Virus record (IMG/VR): IMGVR_UViG_3300025674_000016
Coordinates: 91,703 to 155,702 of that record
DNA: 64,000 nucleotides
Direction: 5' to 3' (one strand)
From: a virus
A program made the translations under genes and the position numbers. The notes under the pieces are model-generated. The model did no database searches and was not told the DNA's origin. It worked only from the letters and a program-made list of their open reading frames with translations. Every line of letters begins with the position of its first letter. Position 1 is the first letter of the stretch. Positions 57,298-63,623 of the stretch are shown piece by piece.

Positions 57298-58130
57298 ATG
57301 ACTTTCTATATTATTCAAGATAGAATCAGCGGAGATTATTTAACTGACCCTTCCAAAGGAGAATGGCAGTTCTTTGAATGGGAAGGTTATAATCTTGTGA
57401 CTTGTGAGATTGAAGAATGCTCTGGACTCTTTTTGACAATCGAAGATGCAATTGAGGAGCTTGAAAATCTTCAAGAGCAAAAAGAATTAAGGATAGATTC
57501 CCAGCAAGAAGATCTAAGAGTTCTCAGAATAGAGCCTGAGACAAACTACCGATGGTTTAAGGAGGATATCAATGAAGATTGAAAATGGGGACGAGTTGGA
57601 CTTGGAAGGCAAATATTGCTGGATTACTGTTGACAGTATATCAATCTTGATTTCCAAGAAGGATGAAGGTGTCTCAGTTTCTCTCTACCCGCTTGATGGT
57701 GAGAGTGAAGAAAGTCTGGCAGAGACTTGGCTAACATATGCGGAGGCAGAGTGCAATGAGCGATTATGGCCTGAAGAAGTTTAAAACATTTGCAAAAGCA
57801 AACAGGCTGCGACTTGAGAGGTCTGAGGATGGCTTACCTATTGTCGCTGCCCGTGGCAAAAAGTTCCAGGGTTGGCACCTATATGAAGGTTTTGGGGATG
57901 ATTTCGTCGCTCTGTATATAACCAGGGATACACCCGCGAAACTAAAACACTCAGTTCGTTTTGTTAAAAAACTGGGCCTTACCCTCATACAAGAGGGAGA
58001 TCTGGAGGCGGTGTTCAAAGTTCCATATAATCAACTCTGGAGAGTAGCAAAGGAACTTAAAATGGTCAAGAAGTCGCCATCAAATCAAAACTTGTCTGGC
58101 TTAGCTCAGTACAGGGAAGCCAATATATAG
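57298..58130 (+). CDS. Three small hypothetical genes (57298-57582, 57572-57784, about 57756-58130)
   Basis: SD GGAGG sites; coupled ORFs behind cassette 2. Confidence 0.55.
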
Positions 58131-58133
58131 AGT

Positions 58134-58296
58134 AAAGTTAAGAGGTTGGGTTTATTATTGCGACTCATTGTCTATAATGAGCGTTCCTTCCATATAGGGT
58201 ATCATACTTTATTATTTTACATGATACCTGGAGGGAGATTAAAAGTAGGCTAGCATGGGACTCACTGCGAAAACTAGTCCTACCCAATCTCACTTT
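58134..58296 (+). ncRNA. Candidate structured ncRNA (about 160 nt)
   Basis: ORF-free; closing stem GAGGTTGGGT/ACCCAATCTC plus AAAGT/ACTTT; long apical hairpin; core shared with 63413-63450. Confidence 0.55.
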
Positions 58297-58299
58297 CCC

Positions 58300-58330
58300 T
58301 GAATAAAACCGGAAGCTAGACTGTCTAAGG
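58300..58330 (+). promoter_or_regulatory. ECF-like promoter cassette, copy 3
   Basis: TGAATAAA-N13-CTGTCTAAGG. Confidence 0.8.
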
Positions 58331-63230: not shown

Positions 63231-63304
63231 GCATCCATAGCTCAGTTGGTCAGAGCCACCCGCTCATAACGGGTTGGTCCTCGGTTCGAGTCCGAGAGGG
63301 TCCA
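63231..63304 (+). tRNA. tRNA(CAU), Ile2/Met type, with a mismatched acceptor stem
   Basis: D, anticodon (CT-CAT-AA) and T arms are intact; acceptor GCATCCA/AGGGTCC has C:C and A:A mismatches. Confidence 0.7.
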
Positions 63305-63324
63305 TAGACTTTAAATAATAGTAT

Positions 63325-63408
63325 GCCGTGGTGGTGGAATCGGTAGACACAGGAGACTTAAAATCTCCCGTCCGTATGGACGTGCGGGTTCGACTCCCGC
63401 TCGCGGTA
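63325..63408 (+). tRNA. tRNA-Leu(UAA)
   Basis: Long variable arm; anticodon loop CT-TAA-AA. Confidence 0.92.
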
Positions 63409-63412
63409 TTAT

Positions 63413-63510
63413 CTCATTGCCTATAATGAGCTTTAATGAAAGTAGGCTAGTACCAGTCTTGTATTAAAAGAGGCGACGGCCCATTCAAGGCCCACCCGTG
63501 CTCATAGACT
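63413..63510 (+). ncRNA. Candidate pseudoknot RNA, short version of the 58.2 kb element
   Basis: CTCATTGCCTATAATGAGC...AAAGTAGGCTAG shared with 58164-58253. Confidence 0.5.
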
Positions 63511-63512
63511 TT

Positions 63513-63587
63513 CTGCTTGTAGCTCAACCAGGTTAGAGCACTGGCCTTATAAGCCAGAGGTTGTGGGTTCGATCCCCACCAGGCAGA
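63513..63587 (+). tRNA. tRNA-Ile(UAU)
   Basis: CTGCTTG/CAGGCAG acceptor; anticodon loop CT-TAT-AA. Confidence 0.88.
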
Positions 63588-63592
63588 TTTCT

Positions 63593-63623
63593 TGAATAAA
63601 CCAACGACTTGTGCTGTCCAAGG
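63593..63623 (+). promoter_or_regulatory. ECF-like promoter/stem-loop cassette, copy 11
   Basis: TGAATAAA-N13-CTGTCCAAGG; CTTGTGC/GTACGAG stem. Confidence 0.75.

What the first reader, a model, noticed from the sequence alone, without database searches (positions are those of the whole stretch)
63413..63510. Second, minimal copy of the pseudoknot motif between two tRNAs
Seen: CTCATTGCCTATAATGAGC (63413-63431) and AAAGTAGGCTAG (63439-63450) match 58164-58182 and 58242-58253. The 59-nt insert of the first copy is replaced by 7 nt. The single core difference (GTCTAT versus GCCTAT) swaps a U:G pair for C:G with GTAGGC, preserving the pairing. A hairpin whose 6-nt loop is fully paired in a pseudoknot, with an AAA linker, loosely recalls the pistol ribozyme P1/pseudoknot, but pistol P2/P3 are not evident. 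Inference: a conserved functional RNA module, perhaps for processing or nuclease blocking.
Basis: partly seen in the sequence, partly recalled or inferred. Interest (0 to 1): 0.7.

Follow-up and report, generated by a model that had tools for sequence, protein, structure and literature searches.

The report
New pseudoknot RNA domain of marine phages
The short repeat between two phage tRNA genes is a real, minimal copy of an uncatalogued folded RNA, a hairpin whose loop pairs with a downstream strand, that uncultured marine T4-like phages place in front of tmRNA, tRNA and glutamine-synthetase genes; its job is not yet known.

Summary
Window 63413-63450 repeats the hairpin and the loop-complementary strand of 58164-58253. 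A third copy lies outside the window, about 100 nt before a phage tmRNA.

The motif is not a promoter. It has no -35 box, and the hexamer is TATAAC in 23 of 25 distinct relatives.

Nothing else credible turned up in 185,579 prokaryote species genomes.

- **Hairpin (P1):** the outer stem co-varies (CUC/GAG, UUC/GAA, GUUC/GAAC, GCG/CGC) around an invariant A-UU-GYCUAU-AA-C.
- **Pseudoknot:** the loop is always complementary to a downstream RUAGRC-U-R-G, at spacings of 11 to 66 nt. Only one-sided changes are seen, so it is plausible but not proven.
- **Fuller versions:** these add a closing helix and a third hairpin whose loop reads GYGAGGA.

No Rfam 15 family matches, including pistol, glutamine and preQ1. 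The pistol resemblance is limited to the paired hexaloop.

My best reading, at moderate confidence, is a cis-acting leader domain that switches between the pseudoknot and a rival pairing of the same strand. The rivals are a new self-cleaving ribozyme, an excised stable small RNA, and a passive nuclease barrier.

The parts
63413..63418 (+). Copy 2, P1 5' strand (CTCATT)
   Evidence: It pairs with 63425-63430. The outer three pairs co-vary across the family (columns 4-22, 5-21 and 6-20 are all paired, with 6, 2 and 2 double changes).
63419..63424 (+). Copy 2, hexaloop GCCTAT, the 5' strand of the proposed pseudoknot
   Evidence: The loop is GYCUAU in all 25 distinct family rows, but the search patterns required it.
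63425..63430 (+). Copy 2, P1 3' strand (AATGAG)
   Evidence: RNAfold forms this hairpin. In 23 of 25 relatives the T is a C, giving a conserved A.C opposite the invariant A (pair 7-18).
63431..63441 (+). Copy 2, 11-nt A/U-rich linker (CTTTAATGAAA)
   Evidence: The equivalent stretch between the P1 3' strand and the loop partner is 11-66 nt in relatives. It is A-rich or holds an extra hairpin.
63442..63447 (+). Copy 2, GTAGGC, the 3' strand of the proposed pseudoknot (6 of 6 complementary to the loop)
   Evidence: All 150 cells of this helix are paired in the family alignment, with one-sided changes only.
63448..63450 (+). Copy 2, conserved U-R-G after the pseudoknot strand (TAG here, TGG in relatives)
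63444..63459 (+). Copy 2, rival local hairpin AGGCT/AGTCT that uses part of the pseudoknot strand
   Evidence: It is in the minimum-free-energy fold and excludes the pseudoknot. Analogous rival pairings occur in copy 1 and in L077/L078 (AGGCUG/CAGCCU).
63451..63511 (+). Copy 2, 3' tail up to tRNA-Ile. It holds hairpin GGCC(63478-63481)/GGCC(63489-63492). It has no clear closing helix or GYGAGGA hairpin, so this is a minimal form.
   Evidence: The whole 102 nt is not unusually stable without the pseudoknot (z = -0.12).
63324..63409 (+). tRNA-Leu(taa). It ends 3 nt before P1 of copy 2.
63512..63588 (+). tRNA-Ile(tat), the gene that copy 2 leads into
58134..58296 (+). Copy 1, the full domain. Closing helix: AAAGT 58134-58138 and TTGGGT 58146-58151, paired with ACCCAA 58282-58287 and ACTTT 58292-58296. 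P1: 58164-58181. Insert hairpin: about 58184-58236. Pseudoknot strand: 58245-58250. P3: 58256-58262 with 58276-58282.
   Evidence: The fold is a closed rod with z = -3.31, and 0 of 200 shuffles do as well.

Best explanation
Copy 2 is a genuine, stripped-down member of an uncatalogued family of phage RNA domains.

**Shown:**
- The core is hairpin P1. Its outer stem is free to co-vary. Its inner part is fixed as A-UU / GYCUAU / AA-C (AA-U in copies 1 and 2).
- A downstream RUAGRC-U-R-G follows, perfectly complementary to the hexaloop.
- Fuller members close the domain with a helix (P0, or a GGG/CCC helix) and add a hairpin P3 whose loop reads GYGAGGA.
- The domain sits on the coding strand in non-coding gaps, in front of tmRNA, tRNA or glutamine-synthetase genes.

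**Inferred mechanism:** it is transcribed as part of the precursor and acts in cis as a folded leader. It toggles between the loop-to-strand pseudoknot and a rival local pairing of the same strand. This would set the fate of the RNA that follows: maturation of tRNA-Ile or tmRNA at the RNase P site a few bases downstream, or read-through of a terminator before protein genes. A bound ligand or phage protein is the probable trigger, and its identity is unknown.
For: - **P1 is real.** Columns 4-22, 5-21 and 6-20 of A2 are paired in all 25 distinct rows, with 6, 2 and 2 double changes. The covariation score is 0.213 against 0.123 in shuffles (0 of 500 reach it), and slid controls give 0.085 or less.
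- **The loop partner goes with the hairpin.** All three credible hits of a pattern based on the hairpin alone also carried the complementary strand. The spacing from the P1 3' strand to the partner ranges from 11 to 66 nt.
- **Strand.** The G:U pairs exist only on the + strand.
- **Closing helix.** It differs in sequence between subtypes yet stays complementary: CAUGGGA/UCCCAUG; CUGCAGG/CCUGCAG in L137 and L169; an 11-bp helix in L112; and copy 1's own.
- **P3.** Its stem shows compensatory changes, for example GAUCGCU/AGCGAUC against GACCACU/AGUGGUC.
- **Position.** The domain ends 3-10 nt before the tmRNA 5' end. In L015/L152 its P3 plus U6 is a terminator 23 nt before the glutamine-synthetase start codon, so that gene needs read-through. 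In the L111 type a strong terminator follows.
- **Rival pairing.** The pseudoknot strand has a competing partner in copies 1 and 2 and in L077/L078.
- **Phage-restricted.** Two pattern scans of 185,579 prokaryote species genomes found only one credible site, on a phage-like MAG contig with a tmRNA.
Against: - No double compensatory change supports the pseudoknot. My search patterns fixed most of its letters, so it is not proven.
- Copy 2 alone is not thermodynamically special (z = -0.12). It lacks the closing helix and the GYGAGGA hairpin.
- No ligand is indicated. The downstream genes (tmRNA, tRNAs, glutamine synthetase, unknown ORFs) form no single metabolic theme, and this genome has no glutamine synthetase or QueF gene.
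- Control of non-coding RNA maturation by a leader switch has little precedent.
- No expression data could be obtained, so the transcript ends are unknown.
- The rival pairings are not obviously homologous between subtypes.
Confidence: 0.42

Rival explanations
1. It is a new class of small self-cleaving ribozyme. It would cut polycistronic phage transcripts next to tRNA or tmRNA genes. In copy 2 that could free the 3' end of tRNA-Leu, which lies 3 nt upstream, or separate the leader from tRNA-Ile.
For: - Its features are typical of small ribozymes: a compact closed domain with a pseudoknot, invariant junction letters (A.C, GAAG, U-R-G, GYGAGGA), several copies per genome, varied neighbours and restriction to phages.
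- A hexaloop fully paired downstream is the pistol P1/pseudoknot arrangement (established knowledge of pistol; not a membership claim).
Against: - No known ribozyme model matches at E<=10.
- No conserved candidate cleavage dinucleotide emerged.
- RNase P and the usual 3' processing enzymes already account for tRNA and tmRNA ends.
- Nothing was tested at the bench.
Confidence: 0.18
2. It is a stable small RNA in its own right, about 100-160 nt, that works in trans, for instance by binding a host or phage protein. It would be cut out of precursors by the tRNA/tmRNA processing enzymes or ended by its own terminator, much like the stable RNAs of unknown function in the T4 tRNA cluster.
For: - In copy 2 the segment 63410-63511 must be released when tRNA-Leu and tRNA-Ile are matured.
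- In tmRNA loci RNase P cleavage would free the leader.
- In the L111 type the domain is followed by a strong terminator.
- The P3 loop GYGAGGA(U/G) is an exposed GGA/Shine-Dalgarno-like motif.
- Leader P0 and P3 loosely recall a tmRNA acceptor/T-arm piece. The permuted-tmRNA model RF04321 scores 48-54 bits across the upstream segment plus the tmRNA 5' part in L132, L112 and L119; in L112 that upstream segment is the tRNA.
Against: - In L015/L152 and L116/L118 a protein gene follows with no room for its own promoter, which points to a cis role.
- The P3 loop motif is missing from copies 1 and 2 and from the L111 type.
- No target or partner is identified.
- The RF04321 score comes mostly from the real tmRNA 5' part.
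Confidence: 0.17
3. It is a passive structural element with no switch and no ligand. It would act as a barrier or stabiliser that protects the downstream RNA from 5'-end-dependent decay or exonucleases, or that insulates the folding of neighbouring tRNAs.
For: - It lies at the 5' side of the RNAs it precedes, and the pseudoknot would be compact.
- Copy 1 is a very stable rod (z = -3.31).
Against: - A mere barrier does not need 11 + 9 invariant letters, a conserved A.C mismatch and a conserved loop motif.
- Copy 2 is not especially stable.
Confidence: 0.1
4. It is a DNA-level signal. It could be a promoter (TATAAT as the -10 box) or the binding site of the conserved Fis/NinH-like helix-turn-helix protein encoded just upstream in most loci.
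For: - Copies 1 and 2 contain a perfect TATAAT.
- A conserved ~120-aa protein with a probable C-terminal HTH sits directly upstream in the tmRNA-type loci.
- The central 12 bp are invariant.
Against: - No -35 box is present and the consensus scan does not call it.
- 23 of 25 members have TATAAC, which lacks the critical last T.
- The flanking arms co-vary instead of being conserved, as an RNA stem does and a protein half-site does not.
- The second element keeps its sequence at spacings from 11 to 66 nt.
- The closing helix P0 lies upstream of P1, so transcription starts further 5'.
- In G002 the HTH gene and the motif are 44 kb apart.
Confidence: 0.05

Closest known systems
Pistol self-cleaving ribozyme (Rfam RF02679)
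   Same: A hairpin whose 6-nt loop is fully paired with a strand a short A-rich linker downstream, followed by another hairpin. Both are found in phage-rich environmental DNA.
   Different: There is no P2 helix framing the pseudoknot strand and P3 in the pistol register. There is no conserved G-U cleavage site after P3. The A-rich run precedes the pseudoknot strand rather than following P1. No model match at E<=10.
Glutamine riboswitch, glnA RNA motif (Rfam RF01739), as found next to the tmRNA of OM43 phage Melnitz (PMC9004378)
   Same: The genomic settings overlap: marine T4-like myophages, beside a tmRNA gene, and (in cells) ahead of glutamine synthetase genes. Here relatives carry the new domain ahead of phage glutamine synthetase. 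Both are three-helix junctions with a purine-rich GAAG-type joiner. Copies 1 and 2 share the string AAGUAGGC with the RF01739 consensus.
   Different: The topology differs. In glnA RNA the 5' CGUUC pairs with the 3' GGAACG and the GGC starts a local hairpin. Here the GGC pairs with a hairpin loop. RF01739 and RF01704 do not match any member. In Melnitz the riboswitch lies after the tmRNA, not before it.
Small H-type pseudoknot aptamers (preQ1-I, SAM-II class)
   Same: A 5-9 bp hairpin, an A-rich 3' linker, and a short second helix formed with the loop.
   Different: The loop is entirely consumed by pairing, which leaves no obvious pocket. The conserved letters are unrelated and no Rfam match was found. 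The gene contexts are not those of queuosine or methionine genes, although a QueF-like gene follows the tmRNA in L004.
Autoregulatory pseudoknot in the phage T4 gene 32 mRNA leader
   Same: A T4-type phage, an H-type pseudoknot in a 5' leader, followed by A/U-rich sequence, and a protein-binding operator logic.
   Different: A different gene context (tmRNA, tRNA, glutamine synthetase), unrelated sequence and several copies per genome. No partner protein is known.
Leader antitermination RNAs of lambdoid phages (HK022 put, lambda nut)
   Same: A folded RNA element placed after a small HTH gene and before terminators and downstream genes.
   Different: put is two plain stem-loops and nut is boxA plus boxB. 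Neither has a pseudoknot or sequence likeness, and an effect on RNA polymerase is untested here.

Membership tests
Pistol ribozyme (RF02679) | P1 hairpin whose hexaloop forms a 6-bp pseudoknot with a downstream strand | tested here: met
   6 of 6 complementarity in all 25 distinct members. It is not proven by double changes.
Pistol ribozyme (RF02679) | P2 helix and P3 hairpin framing the pseudoknot strand, with the conserved G-U cleavage site between P3 and the 3' strand of P2 | tested here: not met
   Read by eye. Copy 2 has no such frame. In L004 the P3 abuts ACCC with no G-U. The closing helix of type A encloses P1, unlike pistol.
Pistol ribozyme (RF02679) | Match to the family covariance model | tested here: not met
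   No hit at E<=1 or E<=10.
Pistol ribozyme (RF02679) | Self-cleavage | not testable with these tools
   Needs a bench assay.
Glutamine riboswitch (RF01739 / RF01704) | Match to the covariance model. The control was positive: Melnitz scores 52.8 bits. | tested here: not met
   Searches give no hit. One search is the positive control.
Glutamine riboswitch (RF01739 / RF01704) | 5' CGUUC paired with 3' GGAACG as the ligand-binding helix | tested here: not met
   These strings are absent from the members. The consensus is shown, and the structure is described in PMC6698751.
Glutamine riboswitch (RF01739 / RF01704) | Location ahead of nitrogen-metabolism genes | tested here: inconclusive
   Glutamine synthetase follows in three sub-lineages. 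It does not follow in this genome, nor in most tmRNA-type loci.
Sigma-70 promoter | -35 hexamer 16-18 bp upstream and a -10 hexamer ending in T | tested here: not met
   The scan does not call it. The hexamer is TATAAC in 23 of 25 members.
tRNA / tmRNA tRNA-like domain | T-loop, acceptor stem with discriminator, recognised by ARAGORN or Rfam | tested here: not met
   ARAGORN and RF00005/RF00023 call only the flanking genes. The P3 loop GYGAGGA is not a T-loop. The RF04321 hits that extend upstream of the tmRNA are driven by the tmRNA 5' part.

The most novel reading that the evidence does not exclude
The domain could be a new class of ligand-sensing or self-cleaving RNA, restricted to phages, that gates the maturation or read-through of ribosome-rescue RNA (tmRNA), tRNAs and a phage glutamine synthetase. 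That would be a riboswitch or ribozyme controlling non-coding RNA output according to the nutritional or translational state of the infected cell. A glutamine-related signal is one candidate, given the glutamine-synthetase context and the Melnitz parallel.
Probability: 0.3. Interest if true: 0.85.

Novelty: new variant of a known kind. Interest (0 to 1): 0.62.

Why it matters
Phage-encoded tmRNAs and tRNA clusters are common in ocean viruses, but how they are expressed and matured is unknown.

This conserved, phage-only folded leader appears in front of tmRNA, tRNA and glutamine-synthetase genes, and no catalogue lists it. It is therefore a concrete, testable handle on that question.

If it senses a ligand or cuts itself, it would add a new riboswitch or ribozyme class. 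It would also be a rare case of regulated non-coding-RNA maturation.

If it is only a structural leader, it still corrects annotation. It is not a promoter, and it explains three 'empty' gaps in this genome.

Tried and rejected
- **Rfam 15.** Scans at E<=1 and E<=10 on the window region, on relatives and on a 151-nt stretch found only tRNA and tmRNA.
- **Loose Python descriptor.** A search for any hexaloop plus its complement in the genome gave only noise beyond the three copies.
- **tmRNA-based pattern.** TTGCAAGGAAGTTTGA, meant to sample leaders without bias, returned only L003/L004 plus chance hits.
- **Chance hits discarded.** Many hits of the loop-plus-partner patterns lie inside ORFs (L027 group, L029, L045, L060, L061, L070, L080). 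I dropped them as chance. L027 and the L019/L023 rows did enter the seed of model R1, which is therefore imperfect.
- **RNA-virus look-alike.** L019 and L022-L025 are 5' UTRs of a picorna-like RNA virus (RdRP_1 and helicase). I treated them as unrelated or convergent.
- **Promoter inference withdrawn.** I first took the AU-rich TATAAT/TATACT boxes just upstream of P1 as the promoter. In several subtypes the 5' strand of the closing helix lies further upstream, so those boxes are inside the RNA.
- **Sigma-54 promoter.** A reading of ...CTGGCAC... does not fit the spacing.
- **Fis-type site.** A reading of the invariant core does not fit the consensus.
- **P3 loop pairing with P1.** This is rejected. 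The loop does not co-vary when P1 changes to GCGCG (L077) or GCAUUC (L136).
- **Paralogy of the ORF before copy 1.** The ORF at 57738-58130 is not a paralogue of the conserved HTH protein (hhalign probability 0.2).
- **Isolated phages.** BLAST of the leader plus tmRNA found nothing, and no close relative of the window turned up.

Full report
**1. The observation.** Both parts of the reported repeat are in the sequence at the stated places.

- Copy 2 has the hairpin CTCATT-GCCTAT-AATGAG at 63413-63430 and GTAGGC at 63442-63447.
- Copy 1 has CTCATT-GTCTAT-AATGAG at 58164-58181 and GTAGGC at 58245-58250.
- The spacer between the shared blocks is 7 nt in copy 2 and 59 nt in copy 1. The one core difference, T or C at loop position 2, faces a G.
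- Allowing up to 3 mismatches, the 19-mer occurs twice against 0.05 expected. The 12-mer occurs twice against 0.27 expected.
- Copy 2 begins 3 nt after tRNA-Leu(taa) and ends just before tRNA-Ile(tat).

The window is the last 64 kb of a 155.7-kb IMG/VR virus record. A third copy lies outside the window at G000:C1:18677-18694. There the hexamer is TATAAC and the loop partner is ATAGGC (U:A instead of U:G). It sits about 100 nt before a complete one-piece tmRNA (92.6 bits).

**2. The organism.** It is a distant T4-type myovirus. It has major head and tail sheath proteins, a DnaE-like polymerase, GroEL and ribonucleotide reductase. Its capsid protein is about 38% identical to that of Microcystis phage Mel-JY01 and 32% to Rhodothermus phage RM378. 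No isolated phage is close at the DNA level.

**3. The motif belongs to a family.**

- A pattern for the hairpin alone found three further distinct phage loci in IMG/VR (L004/L009, L005/L016, L015). All three carry the loop-complementary strand downstream. The remaining hits lie in coding sequence and lack it.
- A specific two-part pattern, for which I estimated about one chance hit, found 40 metagenome loci, nearly all marine.
- A covariance model (R1) aligned 45 loci, giving 25 distinct sequences (A2).
- Two pattern scans of one genome from each of 185,579 prokaryote species gave a single credible site. It is on a 15-kb Tara Red Sea contig binned as Acidiferrobacteraceae, and it carries the same domain directly before a tmRNA, so it is probably phage DNA.
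- In this phage genome the model finds only the three copies.

**4. Anatomy.**

*P1.* The inner part is invariant: A, two U:A pairs, and the loop GYCUAU. The base opposite the A is C in 23 of 25 members and U only in copies 1 and 2. The outer stem changes freely but stays paired: CUC/GAG, CCUC/GAGG, GCAUUC/GAAUGC, GCGCUC/GAGCGC, GGGGUUC/GAACUCC and GCGCG/CGCGU. In one search the three outer pairs are standard pairs in all rows, with 6, 2 and 2 double changes. The covariation score (0.213) beats all 500 shuffles and every slid control. I take P1 as established.

*Loop partner.* RUAGRC-U-R-G is present in every member, 11 to 66 nt after the P1 3' strand. It is preceded by GAAG, GACG, AAAG, AAAA or AGAC. 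All cells pair, but only one-sided changes occur (U:G, C:G and U:A at one pair; U:G and U:A at another). The forbidden C.A combination appears only in one doubtful hit, L130. Because my patterns fixed most of these letters, the pseudoknot is consistent and plausible, not proven.

*Linker.* It is either A-rich or holds an extra hairpin.

*P3.* After the partner strand, most members have a hairpin with clear compensatory changes and a conserved loop start GYGAGGA(G/U).

*Closing helix.* The domain is closed by a helix that differs in sequence between subtypes: CAUGGGA/UCCCAUG; CUGCAGG/CCUGCAG; an 11-bp helix in L112; and UUGGGU/ACCCAA plus AAAGU/ACUUU in copy 1. In another subtype a GGGGGU/ACCCUU helix appears to do this job.

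*The two copies in the window.* Copy 1 is a full version and folds as a closed rod (z = -3.31). Copy 2 has only P1, an 11-nt linker, the partner strand and a loosely structured tail (z = -0.12).

**5. Not a promoter.**

- No -35 box accompanies the hexamer, and the consensus scan does not call it.
- The family prefers TATAAC, which lacks the critical final T.
- The arms co-vary, as RNA stems do.
- G:U pairs exist only on the + strand.
- The closing helix starts upstream of P1, so transcription must begin further 5'.

I first took the AU-rich TATAAT/TATACT boxes just upstream of P1 in relatives for promoters. I withdrew this because several of them lie between the closing helix and P1.

**6. 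Not a known RNA family.** Rfam 15 gives only tRNA and tmRNA at E<=1 to 10, even when only 151 nt are searched.

- *Pistol.* The likeness is real for one feature, a hexaloop fully paired downstream. It fails on the P2/P3 frame, the G-U site and the model.
- *Glutamine riboswitch.* The literature reports a glutamine riboswitch beside the tmRNA of the marine myophage Melnitz (PMC9004378), so I checked that locus. The canonical glnA RNA is there (52.8 bits), but it lies directly after the tmRNA. Its consensus shares the string AAGUAGGC with copies 1 and 2. However, its defining CGUUC/GGAACG helix and its topology (PMC6698751) are absent here, and the model does not match any member.

**7. Context.**

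- In the tmRNA-type loci a conserved ~120-aa protein lies directly upstream. It is 41-70% identical across loci and has a basic N-terminus and a probable Fis/NinH-like HTH (a lead only).
- Downstream come one of the following: a tmRNA 3-10 nt after the domain; tRNA-Asn and then tmRNA (L112); tmRNA, then a QueF-like gene, then glutamine synthetase (L004); glutamine synthetase directly (L015/L152, where P3 plus U6 forms a terminator 23 nt before the start codon); a 70-aa ORF and then glutamine synthetase (L118); or a strong intrinsic terminator (L111 type).
- L077/L078 carry the domain before a small hydrophobic ORF and a fatty-acid-hydroxylase-like gene. That phage also has the HTH protein, but 44 kb away.
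- This genome has neither glutamine synthetase nor QueF.

**8. Mechanism.**

*Shown:* a conserved, strand-specific, phage-restricted folded RNA domain in non-coding gaps ahead of stable-RNA and glutamine-synthetase genes.

*Inferred:* it acts in cis. Three points favour this.
- Downstream genes often have no room for a promoter of their own.
- Terminators or the RNase P site follow immediately.
- The partner strand has a rival local pairing in copies 1 and 2 and in L077/L078, which is what a switch needs.

The invariant unpaired or mismatched letters (A.C, GAAG, U-R-G, GYGAGGA) suggest a specific ligand, protein or catalytic core rather than a plain barrier. I cannot name the trigger, and the gene contexts are too mixed for a metabolite call.

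The same anatomy fits a new self-cleaving ribozyme. It also fits a stable small RNA, which in copy 2 would necessarily be excised when the two tRNAs are matured. I give the cis-switch reading 0.42, the ribozyme 0.18, the excised trans-acting RNA 0.17, a passive barrier 0.10 and a DNA signal 0.05.

**9. Verdict.** The finding is real and more interesting than a repeat. It is the smallest known member of an undescribed phage RNA family. Its fold is half proven (P1 yes, pseudoknot plausible) and its function is open. The earlier notes of this scan on the same window agree with what I tested: the long form of copy 1 and the promoter-like cassettes at 58300 and 63593.

Noticed in passing
G000:C1:18797-19103 (L003:1622-1928), outside the window: A complete one-piece phage tmRNA (RF00023, 92.6 bits). 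Its tag ends ...FEYAMAA, and no CCA is encoded. Relatives carry similar tmRNAs.
   Followed up: partly
G000:C1:18266-18643 (L003:1090-1473) and homologues in L004, L005, L115, L118, L119, L136, L137, L143: A conserved ~120-aa phage protein (41-70% identical) with a basic N-terminus and a probable C-terminal Fis/NinH-type helix-turn-helix. It lies directly upstream of the RNA domain in tmRNA-type loci. It has no Pfam or PHROG hit.
   Followed up: partly
L152:1618-2649, L118:3023-4063 (-), L004:5398-6492 (-): Phage-encoded glutamine synthetases of about 345-365 aa lie downstream of the domain. In L004 one comes after a QueF-like gene (L004:6465-6947). In L152 one is followed by a PLP-dependent enzyme.
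   Followed up: partly
window 63303-63312 and 63503-63512: The 10-mer CATAGACTTT occurs exactly 200 nt apart. One copy spans the 3' end of tRNA-Met and its trailer, and the other sits just before tRNA-Ile. It may be a shared processing or trailer signal.
   Followed up: no
window 63497-63502 versus 63426-63431: GCTCAT near the end of the copy-2 tail is complementary to ATGAGC, the P1 3' strand plus the next base. It is therefore a possible rival partner for P1.
   Followed up: no
L019:5472-5508 (-), also L022-L025: A look-alike hairpin plus loop-complementary strand (AUC-A-UU GUCUAU AA-GAU ... AUAGRC UGG) lies in the 5' UTR of a picorna-like RNA virus polyprotein (RdRP_1, RNA helicase). The next hairpin shows a compensatory change between variants. 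It is probably chance or convergence.
   Followed up: partly
L132:4690-4895, L112:1647-1854, L119:5996-6160: The permuted-tmRNA model RF04321 passes its gathering score across an upstream segment plus the tmRNA 5' part. That segment is part of the leader in L132 and the tRNA in L112. In L132 the leader's P3 and 3' strand resemble a T-arm plus acceptor strand (GACCCGGGU is shared with the tmRNA's own T-arm). This may be a trace of a duplicated tRNA-like domain.
   Followed up: partly
L160:16399-16447 (Melnitz MZ577097, 46398-46446): The canonical glutamine riboswitch of phage Melnitz lies directly 3' of the two-piece tmRNA and 5' of the late-transcription coactivator gene. It more likely controls the gene after it than the tmRNA.
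   Followed up: partly
L169 (PBOB01000052.1, 15 kb, binned as Acidiferrobacteraceae MAG): The contig carries the phage-type domain directly before a tmRNA. It is probably a viral contig mis-binned into a bacterial MAG.
   Followed up: no
window 58300-58330 and 63593-63625: TGAATAA ... Copy 1 is thus separated from the next ORF (58350) by such a cassette.
   Followed up: no
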